Source: Ostreococcus lucimarinus
Lineage: Eukaryota
Strand: one strand, 5' to 3'
Assembly: GCA_000092065.1 (NCBI GenBank)
Contig: CP000589.1
Length of the DNA: 64,000 nt
In this document: positions 12,594 through 53,844 of the stretch, piece by piece
Position numbering within the stretch: the first letter of the stretch is position 1
Layout: the number at the start of each line of letters is the position of its first letter
Program-made: the position numbers and the translations under genes
The notes under the pieces: generated by a model
The model's database searches: none
What the model saw: the letters and a program-made list of their open reading frames with translations, nothing else
What the model was told of the DNA's origin: nothing

Positions 12594-12705
12594 CGCCTCG
12601 GCGCTCAAACTCAAAACCCTAACCGGCTGACGTGGTCGACGCGTGTCGTTTCTCCGGCGTCAAATCGCCCCTCGCACAACGGCGCGCTTTGACGCGTCGC
12701 GCGCG

Positions 12706-12816
12706 ATGGGGGCGTACCTCAGCCAACCGGTCACGCGCAAGGACTCCACCGACGGCGCCGACGCGCGCTTCGCGTACGGCACGACCGCGATGCAGGGGTG
12801 GCGAACGAACATGGAG
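12706..12816 (+). CDS. protein phosphatase 2C, exon 1 (MGAYLSQPV...TAMQGWRTNME)
   Basis: Encodes the conserved PP2C N-terminus including an N-myristoylation-type MGAYLS start and the QGWR..ME motif. It ends exactly at a GT (ATGGAG|gtgcga). Confidence 0.75.
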
Positions 12817-13082
12817 GTGCGACGACGACGAGATGACGCGGACGCGACGACGCGACGACGACGGCGCGCGCGTCGTCGCGACGAGCGGCGAACGCGACGA
12901 CGACGGACGCGCGATGGGAAAGAAACGCGACGCGACGACGCGCGCGCGCGAGCGATGGAGACGACGACGCGCGAGGGACGGCGAAAGAGCGCGACGGCGG
13001 GGACGACGACGACCTGGCGAAGACGCGAGGCGGAGGCGCGAAAGCGGAGGGACTGACGAGCGCGCGACGCGCGATGAAACAG
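12817..13082 (+). other. spliceosomal intron of the PP2C gene (GT...AG, 266 nt, phase 0), purine-rich and almost T-free
   Basis: Exon 1 (frame 1) and the main PP2C ORF (frame 0) are in different frames. Splicing gtgcga...actgac(25 nt)...acag|GAC restores the conserved ME|DAH motif. A CTGAC branch-point-like pentamer lies about 25 nt upstream of the AG. Confidence 0.7.
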
Positions 13083-47666: not shown

Positions 47667-50600
47667 CTAGCTGAAAAAGTACACCGAGTCCTGAACGACG
47701 TCTAAATCCAAATCGCCAGGTGCGGGCGGCTGAGGGAACTCGTCCGCGACGTCTGGGTAATTCGCGCGGAACTCGTGATAAAGATTTTCGAGAAGAGGCT
47801 CTTTGTGAACCTCGATGAACTTTTCACGCAGGATGACATTCATGGTGTCCACGTCCGTCGCGTGCGTCCAAAAGGAATCGTGAACGCCGGCGAACGTCAA
47901 TCCGGCGTCCACGCACGCGATCGCCGTCCTCATCATATGAGAACTGTCGATACTGTGAATATAATTCGGCGGGAACGCGCTCCTTTGCTTCACTTTCATA
48001 ACCGGCTGTTGTTCGTCGTGAACTTTTAGCGAGAATGACTGCAAAATCGTCCGCACGCGCTTGGTTCGCTGACTGTGATACGGCTGCACGACGGGCAATC
48101 CCAGAGGCGTGGTCCAACGCACGGGCTCGCCCGCTGAGGTAGCGATCGTGGCGCAGGTCGTGAGCCATCCCATGACATCTCGGGCGTTTGAAAACATATT
48201 ATTCAACGCGTCGAGCGTCCTTTTCGCGGCGTAGTTGGACACACGATAGCGAAGAAGTTCGTTGTCCTCCATCGCCTCGCGCTCACGGAGACGGCTATAT
48301 ATTTGCGCTCGCGCCCCGATGAAAGTAACGCCGTACACGGACGTCATCACCGTCTGCTTCACAAGCTTACGGTCGATGTGCTGAGCGAGTGACATCGCGA
48401 GCTTGGCGTTGTTAACGTCTTCCTCGTCTTCGCTGTCGATGAGTTTAATATCCTCAGCAACGATGCGCTTCAACACATTCGCGATGCCGGTGTAGACGTC
48501 CGCACCTCTGTCTGCGGGGACCAAGTTCACGGCTTCACCACCGTGTAAGTCGCGACCGAGCGCGGCGTAGTGTTGCAACCCGTTGCACGACCCATCTTGA
48601 TGCACGGGTAAATTACTCATGAACTGCGTCGGGTCCGAGAGCTCGAGCGCTTTGTCGAGCTCGATGCACGTCGCCAAACACTGCCAGGGCTCTTCCGCTT
48701 CTTGCCACCACGCATCCTTCGCGAGCGGGTCTTGAGCCGACGCTCGCACGTCTTCTATGCGATCTTTGATGAACTGCACTCTCTCATCCATCGGAAGCTT
48801 GTCGGCGCCGTTACCAAACAGCGTCGCGCACTGGATGTGCATCCAACGCAGGCCGCGCTCGCCGAGCGGCTTCTTTTCGTTAAATCGAAGCAAACCGCGA
48901 CACAAATCACTTCCTATGTGATTCAAGTGCACGTGCATCGTGTACGCGCGCCCTCTAAAATCCAAATTGTGCGGGAAATAAATATTTGGTTCGTTTTTCA
49001 TCTCTCGCGCAACTTGCAATTTAATGAGAAAGTCGCAGCGCTGAGAGTGGAGCTCCATGTTTGACTTTTTCGTCTTTCGCACGCTTTGCAAAAAGTCGAT
49101 AACCTCACCTTTGCCCGGAAGTCCACTAGCGAGCAGCTGCAAACGCTTTTTGTCGCTGCGAAGCGCATATGACCCGCCGGGCCAGCGTGGGAGTTGCAAC
49201 TCAGCGCGAAGCGGAACCTCAGCCACGCCACCACCTCGAGCCCAGACTTCTTCCACGATCGGTAACACATCCGTATTGATTTGCCACGCGGTTTGCCCCA
49301 AAGCATTGAGAGCGTCTAACACGGGTTGGTATTGCACGGGCTCCCCCGATGCGTCCGCCTCGCGCGCTTTCTCCTCCAACGCCGCGATTTGCGCTCGACT
49401 CGGCCCTTCGTTCGAGTACTTCCCTCGCATGCATAGATTATCAGCGCGCAAGTATCCTCCCTTATTGTACCTCTCCCAATACCGCGGCGGGATAACCATG
49501 GGAAAGTGTCGCACCGGTACGAGCGCTGCGCGAGTCATCGTCTCCGTGTTGATGAATCTGTAAATGCTATCGTGCCAGTGCAGCATTCCGTACCCAGCCT
49601 CTTTGTAGTCGTGATAAAAGGCTGGAAGCGTCAATAATTCACCTTTTTCGTCCGGTACGCCAATCTTTGCCGTGTTCATGAGCGCGGTCAGCAGCACTGT
49701 TCCGATTTTAAGGCGAATCTCACGACCCCACTCCGCGTTCTCGAGCGCTTGCCGAGCGTGCTTGGACACCGACTTGATGGTGTTCATCTTTGACGTATCC
49801 AACGCCAAATTAATCCTATGCTCCGCCGCGTCGTCTATTTCCTTGACGTTGCCTTCGGTGTTCACTAGTCTAGATCGTCTAAATGCCTCCTTGGCCGCCT
49901 TTTCCGCCGACCGCATGCGCTCCAAGTTCACCTCAGCTTGCACCGCGCTTCCAACTTGGTCGGCGACGCTGATAAACTTCGCGCTCCCCGCCGCGGTCTG
50001 GTCGCCCCTTATGAACGACCACGCGCCATTATTCCTACCGTCACCCTTCATCAGCGTGCTGAGCGTCGCGTGAAGCGTCAACACCGCGAGTTTATCCGGT
50101 TCGAGCAAGCCCAAGTAGTGCCCGTACACGCGTCTGTCGACGCCCGGCACGTTGCCCCGTATCTTCTCTTGTTCTTCCGTCAGCGCCTCCACCAGAGGCA
50201 CGTAAAACGACGCCAGCAACTTTTGCACCACGGGTAACTGCGCCCCAATCCCCGCCGCGAACGTCTTCCTCGCCAACTCCTTGTACCGCATCACCTCTCT
50301 TTCCACCGCCAAATTTTCCGCCTCGCGCTGCTTCCGCGTTTGCGCCCGTCTCTCCCCCTCATCCGCGTCCTCCGCGCGCTCTCGCGCCTCGTGCCCCCCC
50401 GCGCGTCTGAGCTGTCGTCTTCGCGCGTGCAGCGACTGCAGCGCGAGCTTGATCTTCGCCCTCCGCTCGTCCGTAGTTTCAAAAATACGATCCTTCACGT
50501 CCCCGAACGCCGTCGCCGCCATGGACAACGGTCGAAGCTTCGGCCCCGGTCGCGGCGCGCGCTCGACCGCGTCCGCGGCGGCGGCGAGCAGCAAATCGAT

Positions 50601-50831
50601 CTCTTCGTCGTCCTCCATCAACTCCGCGGACCATCGCTCGATGGACACCGCGTCGCGCGGCGCGATCGACGACGTCGCGCTCGACGACGACGCGCTCGAC
50701 GCGCGCCTCGCGCGCGCGCGACGATCGACGGCGTCGACGCTCGACGCGCTCGACGCCGCCGAAGACGACGTCGCGCTCGCCGCGCGCGACGCGCGCGACG
50801 CCGCCGCGCGCGCGGCGCGCCGCGCCAACAT
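47667..50831 (-). CDS. phage T7-type single-subunit DNA-directed RNA polymerase (organellar RpoT)
   Basis: Catalytic motifs: HQDGSCNGLQHYAALGRD, VTRKLVKQTVMTSVYGVTFIGA, FSLKVHDEQ, HDSFWTHA. Ser/Ala/Arg-rich N-terminal presequence. 1054 aa; real ATG. Confidence 0.95.
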   Translation of the reverse strand: MLARRAARAAASRASRAASATSSSAASSASSVDAVDRRARARRASSASSSSATSSIAPRDAVSIERWSAELMEDDEEIDLLLAAAADAVERAPRPGPKLRPLSMAATAFGDVKDRIFETTDERRAKIKLALQSLHARRRQLRRAGGHEARERAEDADEGERRAQTRKQREAENLAVEREVMRYKELARKTFAAGIGAQLPVVQKLLASFYVPLVEALTEEQEKIRGNVPGVDRRVYGHYLGLLEPDKLAVLTLHATLSTLMKGDGRNNGAWSFIRGDQTAAGSAKFISVADQVGSAVQAEVNLERMRSAEKAAKEAFRRSRLVNTEGNVKEIDDAAEHRINLALDTSKMNTIKSVSKHARQALENAEWGREIRLKIGTVLLTALMNTAKIGVPDEKGELLTLPAFYHDYKEAGYGMLHWHDSIYRFINTETMTRAALVPVRHFPMVIPPRYWERYNKGGYLRADNLCMRGKYSNEGPSRAQIAALEEKAREADASGEPVQYQPVLDALNALGQTAWQINTDVLPIVEEVWARGGGVAEVPLRAELQLPRWPGGSYALRSDKKRLQLLASGLPGKGEVIDFLQSVRKTKKSNMELHSQRCDFLIKLQVAREMKNEPNIYFPHNLDFRGRAYTMHVHLNHIGSDLCRGLLRFNEKKPLGERGLRWMHIQCATLFGNGADKLPMDERVQFIKDRIEDVRASAQDPLAKDAWWQEAEEPWQCLATCIELDKALELSDPTQFMSNLPVHQDGSCNGLQHYAALGRDLHGGEAVNLVPADRGADVYTGIANVLKRIVAEDIKLIDSEDEEDVNNAKLAMSLAQHIDRKLVKQTVMTSVYGVTFIGARAQIYSRLREREAMEDNELLRYRVSNYAAKRTLDALNNMFSNARDVMGWLTTCATIATSAGEPVRWTTPLGLPVVQPYHSQRTKRVRTILQSFSLKVHDEQQPVMKVKQRSAFPPNYIHSIDSSHMMRTAIACVDAGLTFAGVHDSFWTHATDVDTMNVILREKFIEVHKEPLLENLYHEFRANYPDVADEFPQPPAPGDLDLDVVQDSVYFFS

Positions 50832-51080
50832 CCGCCCCGCACTGCCGCATCGCGTCCGCGTCGCCGATCGACGACGACCGATCGCGATGCGCGCGCGCGA
50901 ACCTCACGCCGTCGATCGCGTCGCGCGCGCGAACCTCGCGCCGTCGATCGCGCGAGCGACGCGCGAGCGATCGCGAGACGGATCGCATCGATCACACACG
51001 GATCATCGCGTCGCGGCATCGCGTCGCGCCATCGCGCGTCGCGCGCGGTCTTTCTGCGACGCGTCGAGCGAGACGTGACC

Positions 51081-51085
51081 ATGGC
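51081..51085 (+). CDS. putative micro-exon 1 (ATGGC) of the ribosomal protein L6e gene
   Basis: ATGGC|gtacgtgg is followed about 400 nt later by ctgac(29 nt)...gacag|TAAGACG. Splicing gives M-A-K-T-K-K-Q-V-K-N-G-Q-P-S-F-Y-P-A-D-D, a typical short basic L6e N-terminus (compare yeast MSAQKAPKWYPSEDV). The unspliced alternative is an acidic 43-aa extension from ATG 51362 that is atypical for L6e. Confidence 0.35.
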
Positions 51086-51489
51086 GTACGTGGCGATGCG
51101 AAGCGCGCGATGCGACGCTCGATTCGCGCGCGACGGCGGGGCGATCGGGGCGCCGTGGACCGCGGCGCGCGCGCGACGGCGGGGCGGGGCGTCCGTCGGC
51201 GTGAAAGCCCTAGCGTTGGGACGAGCATCGCGTCGCGCTCGATCGAGCGCGCGCGGGGGGGCGGCGACGCGCGCGCGATCTCGCGGATTTGTCGTGCGAA
51301 ATCGTGCGCGCGATCTCGCGCGCGCGCGGCGCGCGGGCGGCGCGCGGCGGGCGAGGTCGGGATGAAGTCGCCGACGCGGAGGGTTTCGCGCGCGCGATCG
51401 GGATGCGCGCGCGACGACGGCGACGACGCTGGAACGGTGACCGCGAACGAGACGACTGACGAAAACGCACGTTTATTTCACGATGACAG

Positions 51490-52045
51490 TAAGACGAAGA
51501 AACAGGTGAAGAACGGGCAACCGAGCTTCTACCCCGCCGATGACATCAAAAAGCCGCTGAAGCGCACGATCGAGCACAAGCAGACCAAGCTTCGCGCATC
51601 CATCGCGCCCGGTCAAGTGCTGATCCTTCTCGCTGGACACTTGAAGGGTAAGCGCGTGGTGTTCTTGAAGCAGCTCGAGTCTGGGTTGTTGCTCGTCGCC
51701 GGTCCGTACGGTGTGAATGGCGTGCCGGCGAAGCGCGTGAACCAGCGCTACGTCATCGCGACGAGCGAAAAGGTTGACGTGAGCGGCGCCGCCGCCGCGG
51801 CGGCCAAGTTCACCGATGCCTCGTTCAAGAAGCCGGCGAAGGATCGCAGTAACAAGAAGAGTGAAGAAGAATTCTTCAAGGTTGACCTCGCGAAGAAGGA
51901 GCTTCCGGCTGATTACCTCGAGAACAACAAGGCTCTCGACAAGGCGCTCGGCGACGCCATCGCGAAGACGCCGTACCTCAAGGAATACATGTCCACGCTC
52001 TTCACTTTGAAGTCTGGCGACAAGCCGCATGAGATGAAGTTCTAA
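51490..52045 (+). CDS. 60S ribosomal protein L6e (main exon)
   Basis: KKQVKNGQPSFYPADDIKKPL...KLRASIAPGQVLILLAGHLKGKRVVFLKQLESGLLLVAGPYGVNGVPAKRVNQRYVIATSEKVD...LKSGDKPHEMKF is collinear with eukaryotic L6e. The 5' end is defined by the proposed acceptor. Confidence 0.85.
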
Positions 52046-52194
52046 GCGGTGTGGCGTAAGTAAGGTTAGTGTTGGTGTCTTGGTGATGTGAATGGGGCGT
52101 TTAGAACGCCCCGAAACTTCGGAGACGGATTAGTGGTGATGTAAACGAAAGAGCTCTCGAAGAAGAATCTAAAATCTTTTTACATACCGCTCGC

Positions 52195-53057
52195 CTAAAA
52201 CCATTCGTTGTGCTCCTCTGCGTCCGCGTCTTCGAGCTGCGCGCGCTCTTTCAATTCGCTCTTCTTTCGGAACATTTTTGCCTCGAAGCCCGTGCCGCGG
52301 TCGACGCCGTCCCAGTGACGGCCCGGTTTGATGCCGTAGCGGTTGTGCGGCGCGACGACGCCGCGACGAAGCCAGCTGTGCGGTGGAACCTCTTGCGGGA
52401 TTCGGAAACCAGACTTTTTCAAATCATCCATCGACAACCCTAAGCCGTCGACGACGGATGGGAGATTGAGCGATTCAGCGTGACGCTTTTTGCGGCTCAA
52501 ATGCGCCATCGGGTCGCCGAAACGCATCGCACTTCGCTGTTTGTCTTCATAATCGGCATCGATGTCGGCGTGCGCGAACGGAGTGTCTTTTGCCTTGACT
52601 AAATCTACCTCGTACTGCTTCGCTTGTCTCGCCTGTTCCACACCCGTTGCCCAAACCGGTCGTTCGCGCTCCTTTGGTTTGACATTCTCCGAGCGACGCT
52701 TCATCTCCTCGCTATCCATGAGCTTCCCAGTCGCCTTGTCCCGGTAGTTCGTCGCCGCCCCGCGACCACTTTGCTCGTCCGTCATCTTAGCCACGCGCGC
52801 TTGCTCAGCTTTGCGCTTCAACTCAGCTTCCATGATGACTTGCGCCGCGCTCACGAGACCGGTGGACGTGCCATCCGTCATCTTGTGCTCCTTCGTCTTC
52901 TTTTCCTTCGACTTCTTTTTATTATCTTCCGCGGGCGCTTCCGGCAAGGGATCGGGCGGTAAGATCAAGTCACCGTCGCTATCGTACTGCAGCTCTTGCT
53001 GCCCGGAAGGCTCTTCAGGCAGGATAAAATCGCCATCGCTGTCGTATTGCGGCTCAC

Positions 53058-53088
<31 letters not shown>

Positions 53089-53634
53089 GGGCTCCTGAGG
53101 AATAATCAAGTCCCCATCGCTATCGTACTGCAGCCCATCGCCCGCGCTCGTCGTTGGCGCATCCTCGGGCGGTACCGAAGCATCACCGGCGTCGTCTTCG
53201 CTATCGCTATCGTGTCTCGCGCGGCGACTCGGCGCCGCCGCCGCCGCCGCCGTCGCCTCTTCCGAATCCGAATCGTGTCTTCGTCGTCTCCCCCCAGCCC
53301 CGCTCCCATCTTCCTCCACCGCCGTCCATCCACTACCATCGTCCCCGATCCCCATGTATCGCACCGCGCGCGCCTCGATCTCTTTCGTCGCCATCGCCGC
53401 CGCGTCCACCTCGCGTCCGCGCGCGTCCAAAACCACCGCGCGATCCTCATCCTCTCGACCCTTCTTCGTCCCCGTCGCGTCCGCGCTCGCGCCCGCGTCG
53501 CCGTCGATGATGCGAATCGCGTTCGAGTGCGTCTTCGGGCGCTTCTTTTTGCGCTTCTTCCCGTCGTCACCGCGCGGGTCGGCGCTCGACGGCGCGCTCA
53601 TGTACTTTTTGAGGTAGTCGAGTTTGGAGCTCAT
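52195..53634 (-). CDS. BUD13/CWC26 pre-mRNA splicing factor (RES complex subunit)
   Basis: N-terminal SKLDYLKKYM, repeated QYDSDGD motifs, conserved C-terminal block RIPQEVPPHSWLRRGVVAPHNRYGIKPGRHWDGVDRGTGFE. The ORF-track start is GTG; the first ATG is at 53632-53634 (MSSKLDYL). Confidence 0.8.
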
Positions 53635-53844
53635 GGCGGCGCGTTCGAGCGCGCGCGCGCGTTGGGGGCGTCGATCGTCGACGTCGACGTCGCGTCGCGT
53701 CACGTCGTCGCGCGCGCGCGGCGTCGATCGACGCGACGAGTCGAGGTGTGACGGTCTGGTCGCTCGCCGCGACGGTTTCGTTCGTTTCGCTCATCTAACG
53801 CGCTATGATTTCAGCTATAACTTGAGCTAATGCGGTCGTCGCGT

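What the first reader, a model, noticed from the sequence alone, without database searches (positions are those of the whole stretch)
51081..51505. Ribosomal protein L6e probably starts with a 5-nt micro-exon (ATGGC) followed by a ~400-nt GC-rich intron
The L6e homology begins at ...KTKKQVKNGQPSFYPADDIKKPL, and the in-frame sequence upstream of it is acidic and unlike any L6e N-terminus. About 400 nt upstream there is ATGGC|GTACGTGG. Near the homology start there is CTGAC followed 29 nt later by gacag|T. Splicing these gives MAKTKKQVKNGQPSFYPADD..., a typical short basic L6e N-terminus like the yeast one. The intron begins with the same G|GTRCG donor and carries the same CTGAC pre-acceptor motif as the PP2C intron. 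The ATG also lies about 250 bp from the divergent RpoT start, a sensible bidirectional-promoter distance.
Basis: inference. Interest (0 to 1): 0.5.

Follow-up and report, generated by a model that had tools for sequence, protein, structure and literature searches.

The report
Ribosomal protein eL6 gene's start-codon intron
This is ordinary for the genus, because the O. tauri copy of the gene is already annotated the same way.

Summary
Confirmed.
- ATGGC at 51081-51085
- GTACGTG donor starting at 51086
- GACTGACG branch motif at 51454-51461
- CAG acceptor ending at 51489

Four independent public contigs join window 51085 directly to 51490. This removes exactly 51086-51489 (404 nt, GT-AG, phase 2). 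The product, MAKTKKQVKNGQPSFYPADD... (186 aa), exists in the protein database as P0127.

The same ATGGC|GTRCGT...ACTGAC...YAG structure, with introns of 370-441 nt, is present in six Ostreococcus lineages. A second species has a spliced contig, and its predicted product exists as an MMETSP0938 (RCC789) entry. The annotated O. tauri protein XP_022839703.1 (MAKKKSPKFYPGDD) requires the same 5-nt coding first exon.

The donor and branch motifs match the published Ostreococcus consensus (GTGCGTG, GACTGACG). The intron is not coding: two haplotypes differ by frameshifting indels. It has no Rfam match, no unusual fold and no repeated copies in the window.

This is a correct gene model of an already known kind, so interest is low.

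One extra point is new here. Two telomere-repeat-like words, RCCCTAR and GGGTTT, hold their positions in all six otherwise unalignable introns. They may be a telo-box-like regulatory element, but this is untested.

The parts
47667..50831 (-). Divergently transcribed neighbour: a phage-type (RpoT-like) organellar RNA polymerase ORF. Its ATG lies 249 nt from the eL6 ATG.
   Evidence: ORF list. Pfam RNA_pol E = 2e-157 and RPOL_N E = 1e-61. The same neighbour is present in O. tauri and every other lineage fetched.
51048..51056 (+). Pyrimidine-rich motif GGTCTTTCT upstream of the observed mRNA 5' end. Four of the other five Ostreococcus lineages have TCCGCCTTT(C/A) 24-52 nt before the ATG. It may be an initiator or promoter element; this is inference only.
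51063..51080 (+). 5' UTR, minimum extent. All four spliced contigs stop matching the genome at 51063-51065. The start context is ACCATGG.
   Evidence: blastn of L001-L004 against the window. L002 carries a Nextera adapter directly 5' of 51063/4.
51081..51085 (+). Coding part of exon 1: ATGGC (Met plus the first two bases of Ala codon 2).
   Evidence: ATGGC|GT is conserved in six Ostreococcus lineages.
51086..51489 (+). Spliceosomal GT-AG intron, 404 nt, phase 2, 73.8% GC.
   Evidence: It is precisely absent from L001-L004. There are 18 substitutions and 5 indel events (four of them 1 nt long) against haplotype L017, compared with 11 substitutions and no indels in exon 2. GC content.
51086..51092 (+). 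5' splice site GTACGTG. Haplotype L017 has GTGCGTG.
   Evidence: The published Ostreococcus consensus is GTGCGTG (PMC2483917).
51207..51213 (+). Conserved intronic word GCCCTAG (RCCCTAR). It occurs in either orientation in all six lineages, 282-309 nt before the 3' splice site.
51380..51387 (+). Conserved intronic word AGGGTTTC (GGGTTT). It has the same orientation in all six lineages, 81-128 nt before the 3' splice site.
51454..51461 (+). Branch-point motif GACTGACG. The presumed branch A at 51459 lies 30 nt before the end of the intron.
   Evidence: ACTGAC starts 33-42 nt before the 3' end of the intron in all six lineages. The published extended motif is GACTGACG.
51487..51489 (+). 3' splice site CAG.
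51490..52045 (+). Exon 2 coding sequence, from the third base of codon 2 to the stop TAA (52043-52045). With exon 1 it gives a 186-aa eL6.
   Evidence: Pfam Ribosomal_L6e E = 3e-33. Translation. Differs at one residue (Leu for Phe) from P0127.
52046..52154 (+). 3' UTR, minimum extent seen in spliced contigs. It converges on Bud13 (52195-53703, minus strand).
   Evidence: L004 matches up to 52154. L001 runs on into Bud13. Pfam Bud13 hit.

Best explanation
This is the nuclear gene for cytosolic ribosomal protein eL6 (L6e) of an Ostreococcus-lineage picoalga. One canonical U2-type spliceosomal intron of 404 nt (51086-51489) interrupts it.

Transcription starts at or shortly upstream of 51063. The first exon holds a short 5' UTR plus ATGGC. 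The spliceosome recognises the strong genus-typical signals: GTACGTG, the branch motif GACTGACG 30 nt from the end, and CAG. Splicing joins 51085 to 51490, completes codon 2 as GCT (Ala) and yields a 186-aa protein starting MAKTKKQVKNG.

The junction and its conservation across species are shown by data. The choice of branch nucleotide, the exact transcription start and the reason the intron has been kept are inferred.

An unspliced mRNA read from the same AUG would give an unrelated 94-codon ORF that stops at 51363-51365, so splicing is required to make eL6.
For: 1. Four independent spliced contigs from different samples each match 5106[3-5]-51085 and then continue at 51490 at about 99.5-99.7% identity: JGI 3300016734 (L001), ERR9850610 (L002), SRR17229365 (L003) and SRR17229566 (L004). 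The flanking bases (C|G and G|T) leave no ambiguity about where the junction lies.
2. Database proteins P0127 (MAKTKKQ..., 186 aa), P0003 (...VERDVTMAKTKK) and P0129 (...SERDVTMAKTKK) read through the window's own 5' UTR into the spliced junction.
3. In a second species, spliced contig L014 joins L009 position 1124 to 1536, removing the predicted 411-nt intron. Its product P0171 (MAKTKQAKSPSFYPADD) also carries an MMETSP0938 tag, a transcriptome of Ostreococcus sp. RCC789.
4. The O. tauri gene model for XP_022839703.1/CEF99205.1 spans 978 nt for 178 aa and starts ATGGC|GTACGT, followed by a 441-nt intron, CTGAC and CGCAG|GAAG. The RpoT/eL6/Bud13 synteny is identical.
5. All six Ostreococcus lineages have ATGGC|GT[AG]CGT and ACTGAC starting 33-42 nt before the 3' end of the intron. 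Intron lengths are 370-441 nt, and the interiors are otherwise unalignable.
6. Comparison with haplotype L017 shows 18 substitutions and 5 indel events in the intron, four of them 1 nt long, so the reading frame is lost. The GTRCGT, ACTGAC and AG signals are all retained. Exon 2 has 11 substitutions, no indels and only one amino-acid difference.
7. The signals equal the published consensus for O. lucimarinus introns outside chromosome 2. There, 87% of EST-confirmed introns have ACTGAC, 66.5% have GACTGACG, and the 5' splice site consensus is GTGCGTG (PMC2483917).
Against: I could not verify from metadata that L001-L004 come from RNA rather than DNA. That they do is inferred from three things: colinearity with the genome ends at 51063-65 in all four, adapters abut two of them, and the parallel species has an MMETSP-tagged product.

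The 5' ends of L001, L003 and L004 carry unrelated (chimeric) sequence, so the transcription start is only bounded and not mapped.

Many public ORF calls (P0001, P0135, P0136, on hundreds of contigs) present the locus as 227-311 aa unspliced ORFs. These are prokaryote-style gene calls on genomic contigs and are not transcript evidence.

The window's exact predicted protein (Leu in GHLKGK) is not in the protein collection.
Confidence: 0.97

Rival explanations
1. There is no intron. The gene is a continuous ORF translated from ATG 51362 (227 aa) or ATG 51110 (311 aa), giving eL6 an acidic or Arg-rich N-terminal extension. Many public metagenome annotations call it this way.
For: An uninterrupted ORF runs from 51110 to 52045. 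Identical ORF calls exist on hundreds of contigs: P0135 is indexed in 711 blocks, and P0001 and P0136 are similar.
Against: The upstream part has no similarity in any other lineage. Its frame is broken by 1-nt indels in the sister haplotype, as seen in P0002, P0128, P0133 and L017. Spliced contigs skip it entirely. Its GC content (74%) matches non-coding DNA here and not exon 2 (57%). In an unspliced mRNA the first AUG (51081) opens a different frame that stops at 51363-65.
Confidence: 0.01
2. The 'spliced' contigs are DNA from an intron-less allele or a processed retrocopy in some strains, so the window copy need not be spliced.
For: I could not check the sample type of the four contigs. L014, from the second species, is colinear with the genome for 252 nt upstream of the ATG while lacking the intron.
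Against: In all four contigs of this species, colinearity with the genome stops at 51063-65, as expected for an mRNA 5' end. DNA would continue into the promoter and RpoT. L001 continues 3' into the neighbouring Bud13 gene, which fits overlapping convergent transcripts and not a retrocopy located elsewhere. The product of the parallel junction carries an MMETSP transcriptome tag. All genomic contigs long enough to show RpoT and Bud13 contain the intron. The splice signals are under selection across six lineages.
Confidence: 0.02
3. The intron is a recently inserted mobile 'introner element' of the kind known in Micromonas, or it hosts a small RNA (snoRNA or miRNA) that explains its size.
For: It is long for the genus: 404 nt against a median of 111 and a mean of 168 for O. 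lucimarinus introns (PMC2483917). It is also GC-rich.
Against: There are no other copies in the 64-kb window, only short GC-rich low-complexity matches. The position and phase are shared by six lineages whose intron interiors have diverged beyond alignment, so the intron is old. No Rfam family comes near its threshold; the best hits are 24 bits against 79 needed and 22 against 62. The fold is no more stable than shuffles, with z = +0.14.
Confidence: 0.02

Closest known systems
Ostreococcus tauri eL6 gene (protein XP_022839703.1 / CEF99205.1, locus on CAID01000009.2)
   Same: It is the orthologous gene in the same RpoT(-)/eL6(+)/Bud13(-) neighbourhood. The first coding exon is ATGGC and the donor is GTACGT. 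The intron has the same phase-2 position in codon 2, CTGAC lies about 40 nt before the acceptor, the intron is about 0.4 kb and GC-rich, and the product starts MAKK....
   Different: Protein identity is 68%. The intron is 441 nt rather than 404, and its interior is unalignable except for two short words. The N-terminus is eight residues shorter.
Ostreococcus 'non-chromosome-2' spliceosomal introns (Irimia & Roy 2008, PMC2483917)
   Same: The 5' splice site GT[G/A]CGTG and the extended branch motif GACTGACG, at a short fixed distance from the 3' splice site, are exactly as published for EST-confirmed O. lucimarinus introns.
   Different: This intron is about 3.6 times the published median length. 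It sits only 5 nt into the coding sequence.
Start-proximal introns of ribosomal protein genes in intron-poor yeasts (Saccharomyces cerevisiae)
   Same: Both are highly expressed RP genes in intron-poor, compact genomes. Each keeps one relatively long intron close to the start codon with near-invariant splice signals. That yeast RP genes are intron-rich is cited in PMC2367439 and PMC2585575. A parallel excess of introns in highly expressed O. lucimarinus genes is shown in PMC2367439.
   Different: The lineage and consensus differ (GTATGT/TACTAAC in yeast). My recollection that yeast RPL6A/B also have a very short first coding exon comes from memory and was not tested here. Homology of intron position is not established.
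Plant telo-box (AAACCCTAA) in the 5' regions of ribosomal protein genes
   Same: Telomere-repeat-like words lie downstream of the transcription start of an RP gene. RCCCTAR sits about 145 nt from the observed mRNA 5' end, close to the Arabidopsis and rice preferred zones of -60..+140 and -80..+180 (PMC2576244). Enrichment in land-plant RP genes is described in PMC3212954.
   Different: The window's intron does not contain the canonical 9-mer. It has AAAGCCCTAG and AGGGTTTC. Only one gene was examined and no binding or expression data exist. This is a resemblance, not a membership.

Membership tests
U2-type GT-AG spliceosomal intron (Ostreococcus non-chromosome-2 class) | GT...AG termini and precise removal from mature mRNA | tested here: met
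   GT at 51086-87 and AG at 51488-89. Four spliced contigs join 51085 to 51490.
U2-type GT-AG spliceosomal intron (Ostreococcus non-chromosome-2 class) | 5' splice site consensus GTGCGTG | tested here: met
   The window has GTACGTG and haplotype L017 has GTGCGTG. All six lineages have GT[AG]CGT. Consensus from PMC2483917.
U2-type GT-AG spliceosomal intron (Ostreococcus non-chromosome-2 class) | Branch motif ACTGAC (extended GACTGACG) close to the 3' splice site | tested here: met
   GACTGACG at 51454-51461. ACTGAC starts 33-42 nt before the 3' end of the intron in all six lineages. It is rare elsewhere: 9 sites in 64 kb on both strands against 19 expected.
U2-type GT-AG spliceosomal intron (Ostreococcus non-chromosome-2 class) | Lariat formed at the A of ACTGAC | not testable with these tools
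   This needs lariat or branch-point sequencing.
Ribosomal protein eL6 (Pfam PF01159 Ribosomal_L6e) | Significant full-length match to the family profile | tested here: met
   E = 3.1e-33, 115 bits against a cut-off of 21.4, profile positions 1-111 of 111. There are 6371 homologues with E <= 1e-5, many of them named L6/L6e by their sources.
Ribosomal protein eL6 (Pfam PF01159 Ribosomal_L6e) | N-terminal domain PF03868 (Ribosomal_L6e_N), as in land plants and animals | tested here: not met
   No PF03868 hit. The Ostreococcus proteins are 178-186 aa with a short basic N-terminus. This domain is optional in the family and is also absent from most green-algal hits.
Orthologue of the annotated O. 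tauri eL6 gene structure | Same intron position and phase (after nucleotide 5 of the CDS) and same synteny | tested here: met
   L005 reads 2501 ATGGC|GTACGT ... CGCAG|GAAG 2947. The gene span is 978 nt, made up of 537 nt of CDS plus 441 nt of intron. The neighbours are RpoT and Bud13.
Introner elements (Micromonas-type repetitive introns) | High sequence identity to many other introns of the same genome | tested here: not met
   Only short GC-rich low-complexity matches occur in the 64-kb window. The PP2C intron is unrelated in sequence. This test is limited to the window and does not cover the whole genome.
Intron-hosted snoRNA or other described RNA family | Match to an Rfam covariance model at or near its gathering score | tested here: not met
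   Best hits are 24.3 bits (threshold 79) and 22.5 bits (threshold 62). The fold z-score is +0.14.
Plant telo-box cis-element | AAACCCTA(A) motif near the transcription start, enriched among ribosomal protein genes | tested here: inconclusive
   The canonical motif is absent from the window's intron. The related words RCCCTAR and GGGTTT are positionally conserved in six lineages. A Bathycoccus-like locus has a perfect TTAGGGTTT 88 nt upstream of its ATG. Enrichment across RP genes could not be tested because only one RP gene was available.

The most novel reading that the evidence does not exclude
The unusually long intron has been kept at the very start of the eL6 gene for the whole history of the genus because it carries DNA-level regulatory elements. 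Two telomere-repeat-like words fit this idea: RCCCTAR, which works in either orientation, and GGGTTT, about 180-200 nt downstream of it. They keep their positions in six lineages while the rest of the intron has diverged beyond alignment. If they act as a telo-box-like downstream enhancer, the plant-type telo-box control of ribosomal protein genes would be older than land plants. The intron would then be a housing for the promoter rather than a passive relic.
Probability: 0.2. Interest if true: 0.45.

Novelty: already known. Interest (0 to 1): 0.18.

Why it matters
The main value is for annotation. Hundreds of public metagenome contigs of this alga carry a wrong 227-323 aa ORF call that reads through the intron. 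The correct product is 186 aa and starts MAKTKK.

The case also shows that gene finders must be able to place a coding first exon of only five bases in Ostreococcus-type genomes, and that the strong GTRCGT/ACTGAC signals make such calls reliable.

Biologically it is one more example of a highly expressed ribosomal protein gene in a miniaturised genome keeping a long intron right after the start codon. The conserved telomere-like words inside the intron give a concrete, testable lead on why such introns are retained. O. tauri can be transformed (my own knowledge, not checked here), so the lead could be tested directly.

Tried and rejected
- **Described RNA families.** An Rfam search of 50800-52200 at E <= 1 gave only two sub-threshold chance hits.
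- **Intron structure.** Folding the intron as RNA gave -226.4 kcal/mol against a shuffle mean of -227.1, z = +0.14. There is no sign of a selected structure.
- **Repeats.** blastn of the intron against the window found only low-complexity GC-rich matches and no introner-like repeat.
- **Cross-species alignment.** A MAFFT alignment of six orthologous introns was essentially unalignable outside the splice signals. This makes the two conserved words stand out, but also means no consensus-structure analysis was worthwhile.
- **Promoter conservation.** I considered whether the 100% identity of the intergenic promoter between the window and L017 reflected selection. I rejected this because the identical tract extends 1.5 kb into the RpoT coding sequence. 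It is a haplotype mosaic with a breakpoint near 51088.
- **Pairing of the two words.** I considered that motif A and motif B pair as RNA. I rejected this because motif A is inverted in three lineages while motif B is not.
- **Other motif copies.** I checked the other RCCCTAR sites in the window. 55759 and 52437 lie in or at the end of coding regions and look like chance. 12616 lies in the PP2C 5' region.
- **Exact-sequence look-ups.** Look-ups of my predicted spliced proteins for the window allele, L007, L011, L013 and the Bathycoccus-like L015 all returned 'not in the collection'. This is uninformative because only exact matches count.
- **Naming the organism.** It is not O. tauri (68% identity) and not RCC789 (78%).
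- **Literature.** Searches for an Ostreococcus telo-box, or for a description of start-proximal RP introns in Ostreococcus, found nothing specific.

Full report
**1. The observation**

ATGGC is at 51081-51085 and is followed by GTACGTGG. ACTGAC is at 51455-51460 and lies within GACTGACG at 51454-51461. ...GACAG ends at 51489 and T at 51490 opens the homology region. Joining 51085 to 51490 gives ATG GCT AAG ACG AAG AAA CAG..., a 186-codon frame ending at TAA 52043-52045 that starts MAKTKKQVKNGQPSFYPADD.

The long ORF 51110-52045 matches Pfam Ribosomal_L6e over the whole profile (E = 3e-33). The flanking genes are a phage-type RNA polymerase (minus strand, ATG at 50831, 249 nt away) and Bud13 (minus strand).

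The putative intron is 73.8% GC, like the intergenic spacer (72.7%) and the PP2C intron (72.2%). Exon 2 is 57.4% GC.

**2. Proof of the junction**

A protein search with the unspliced ORF returned prokaryote-style ORF calls that read through the intron (P0001, P0002). It also returned P0003, whose N-terminus ...VERDVTMAKTKKQVKNG is the translation of the window's 5' UTR (GTCGAGCGAGACGTGACC) followed by the predicted spliced sequence. Its contig L001 (JGI 3300016734) matches window 51063-51085 at 100% and then 51490-53259 at 99.5%, with nothing in between.

The cluster listing and sequences added two more proteins. P0127 differs from the predicted protein at one residue (Phe for the window's Leu) and is 186 aa. 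P0129 reads ...SERDVTMAKTKK. Their contigs show the same join:
- L002 (ERR9850610)
- L003 (SRR17229365)
- L004 (SRR17229566)

Each matches 5106[3-5]-51085 and then continues at 51490. The bases flanking the junction differ (C|G at the donor, G|T at the acceptor), so the boundaries cannot be slid. The intron is exactly 51086-51489, GT-AG, phase 2.

All four contigs lose colinearity with the genome at 51063-51065. L002 has a Nextera adapter there and the other three have unrelated sequence. This fits an mRNA 5' end at or slightly upstream of 51063. The first exon of the mRNA is therefore at least 21-23 nt, of which five bases are coding. I could not check the sample metadata, so the RNA origin of these contigs is inferred from this behaviour and from the parallel evidence in section 3.

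**3. Related genomes**

The relatives are Ostreococcus. One cluster contains O. tauri XP_022839703.1/CEF99205.1 (P0182, 178 aa, MAKKKSPKFYPGDD). Another contains P0171 (MAKTKQAKSPSFYPADD), which carries an MMETSP0938 tag. That is a transcriptome of Ostreococcus sp. RCC789.

The O. tauri gene spans 978 nt for a 537-nt CDS. It reads ATGGC|GTACGT...CTGAC...CGCAG|GAAG with a 441-nt intron, in the same RpoT/eL6/Bud13 neighbourhood.

Genomic loci from four further lineages (L007, L009, L011, L013) all have the same structure:
- ATGGCGT 400-470 nt upstream of the FYP codons
- a GT[AG]CGT donor
- ACTGAC starting 33-42 nt before the 3' end of the intron
- an in-frame acceptor giving MAK(T/K)K...
- an intron of 370-435 nt

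For L009 the prediction is confirmed by spliced contig L014, which joins 1124 to 1536.

A Bathycoccus-like locus (L015) has a candidate ATGGCCAAG|GTAAGT first exon and a 516-nt intron, four bases further into the CDS and in phase 0. I found no transcript for it. Micromonas/Mantoniella-type proteins start MVKVTS... as uninterrupted ORFs. The five-base first coding exon is therefore a trait of Ostreococcus.

**4. The intron is not coding and not a known RNA or repeat**

Against a sister haplotype (L017, a 527-kb ENA contig) the intron has 18 substitutions and five indel events, four of them single bases. GTRCGT (A to G at position +3), ACTGAC and AG are all retained. Exon 2 has 11 substitutions, no indels and only one amino-acid change. 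This explains why database ORF calls for the two haplotypes have unrelated 'N-termini' (P0135 against P0002, P0128 and P0133).

An unspliced mRNA read from AUG 51081 would stop at 51363-65 after 94 codons. Three further checks were negative. Rfam gives nothing near threshold. The fold energy equals that of shuffles, z = +0.14. There are no other copies in the window.

**5. Comparison with what is known**

Irimia & Roy (PMC2483917) analysed EST-confirmed O. lucimarinus introns outside chromosome 2. They report ACTGAC in 87%, GACTGACG in 66.5%, an atypical 5' consensus GTGCGTG, and a median intron length of 111 nt (mean 168). The eL6 intron carries exactly these signals. Only its length and its position five bases into the CDS are unusual.

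Lanier et al. (PMC2367439) showed an excess of introns, and longer introns, in highly expressed O. lucimarinus genes. They drew the parallel with yeast ribosomal protein genes.

The finding is therefore a correct gene model of an already described kind. The orthologous O. tauri model shows the identical structure.

**6. What I noticed beyond the finding**

The six orthologous introns cannot be aligned internally. Even so, each contains exactly one CCCTA/TAGGG 282-309 nt before the 3' splice site. Within RCCCTAR it lies in the sense orientation in three lineages and antisense in three. Each also contains GGGTTT, always in the sense orientation, 81-128 nt before the 3' splice site (L009 also has a second copy at 169 nt).

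Unbiased scans of shared words support this. GGGTTT is the only shared 6-mer that was never shared in 300 shuffled sets. AAACC/GGTTT and CCCTA/TAGGG are the top shared 5-mers, at 0 of 1000 shuffles. The chance of occurrence per intron is 0.02-0.18. In the whole 64-kb window RCCCTAR occurs 4 times and RGGGTTTY 5 times.

Both words are pieces of the plant-type telomere repeat TTTAGGG, and so resemble the telo-box of land-plant ribosomal protein genes. That element prefers positions from -60 to +140/+180 relative to the transcription start (PMC2576244; PMC3212954). Two related observations fit. The Bathycoccus-like locus has a perfect TTAGGGTTT 88 nt upstream of its ATG. The PP2C gene has a perfect AAAACCCTAA about 90 nt upstream of its ATG.

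With one ribosomal protein gene in hand I cannot test enrichment. This remains a hypothesis, and I put its probability at about 0.2.

**7. Verdict**

My confidence in the gene model is 0.97.
- Novelty: already known. The same intron is annotated in O. tauri and the splice signals are published.
- Interest is low, at 0.18. The practical value is in correcting widespread ORF miscalls. There is also a modest lead on why the intron is retained.

Noticed in passing
window 51207-51213 and 51380-51387 (also L005, L007, L009, L011, L013 introns): Two telomere-repeat-like words are positionally conserved in six otherwise unalignable orthologous introns. RCCCTAR occurs in either orientation 282-309 nt before the 3' splice site. 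GGGTTT is always in the sense orientation, 81-128 nt before it. They are the top hits of unbiased shared-word scans, never shared in 300 shuffles (6-mers) or 1000 shuffles (5-mers). This may be a telo-box-like element.
   Followed up: partly
window 51048-51056; L005, L007, L009, L013 upstream regions: A pyrimidine motif TCCGCCTTT(C/A) lies 24-52 nt upstream of the eL6 ATG in four lineages. The window has GGTCTTTCT instead and L011 lacks the motif. It resembles the polypyrimidine initiators of ribosomal protein genes, but the spliced contigs start about 13 nt downstream of it.
   Followed up: partly
window 51641-51643: The window encodes Leu (TTG) in the motif GH[F]KGKR. Every relative I read, including contigs whose intron is identical to the window's, has Phe (TTC). 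This is either a private non-synonymous variant or an assembly error. The window's exact protein is absent from the protein collection.
   Followed up: partly
window 49581-53563 compared with L017: Divergence from a sister haplotype is mosaic. There are only 3 differences over 49581-51087 (RpoT 5' coding sequence plus the promoter), then 2-5% divergence from 51088 onwards. Two hot spots stand out: 52100-52199 (the 3' UTR/intergenic region, 25 differences) and 53000-53099 (the GCC-repeat part of Bud13, 22 differences). This suggests a recombination breakpoint at the start of the intron.
   Followed up: partly
window 12613-12622, 12707, 12817-13082: The PP2C gene has its ATG at 12707. A 266-nt GC-rich intron (GTGCGA...ACTGAC at 13052-57...AACAG) splits the conserved MED|AH motif. 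A perfect telo-box AAAACCCTAA lies about 90 nt upstream of the ATG.
   Followed up: partly
whole window: The branch-point hexamer ACTGAC occurs only 9 times on both strands, against 19 +/- 4.7 expected from shuffles. All 100 shuffles had at least 9. This would fit avoidance of stray branch sites outside introns. Two of the nine sites are the eL6 and PP2C branch motifs.
   Followed up: no
L015 994-1519 (Bathycoccus-like ENA contig): A candidate eL6 first exon ATGGCCAAG|GTAAGT is followed by a 516-nt intron ending CAACAG. The intron is in phase 0 and sits 4 nt further into the CDS than in Ostreococcus. It has no CTRAY motif. This could be intron sliding or an independent intron. No transcript evidence was found.
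   Followed up: partly
database proteins P0001, P0002, P0128, P0133, P0135, P0136, P0140 (all map to window 51081-52045): Public metagenome annotations call this gene as 227-323 aa ORFs that read through the intron. P0135 alone is indexed in 711 blocks of the collection. Several of these calls are labelled 'large subunit ribosomal protein L6e'. These N-termini are artefacts of prokaryote-style gene calling on eukaryotic contigs.
   Followed up: yes
L001 1-118 and 1906-2019; L002 1-18; L003 1-244 and 907-930; L004 1-463: The public spliced contigs are chimeric or carry adapters at their ends: a Nextera mosaic end in L002, a TruSeq adapter in L003, and unrelated coding-like sequence in L001, L003 and L004. 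In L001 the 3' join falls in the GCC repeat of Bud13.
   Followed up: partly
window 47667-53703; L005, L007, L009, L011, L015: The gene order RpoT(-) / eL6(+) / Bud13(-) is conserved from the Bathycoccus-like contig through all Ostreococcus lineages. The eL6 and Bud13 transcripts appear to overlap or abut at their 3' ends, because contigs L001 and L014 run from one gene into the other.
   Followed up: no
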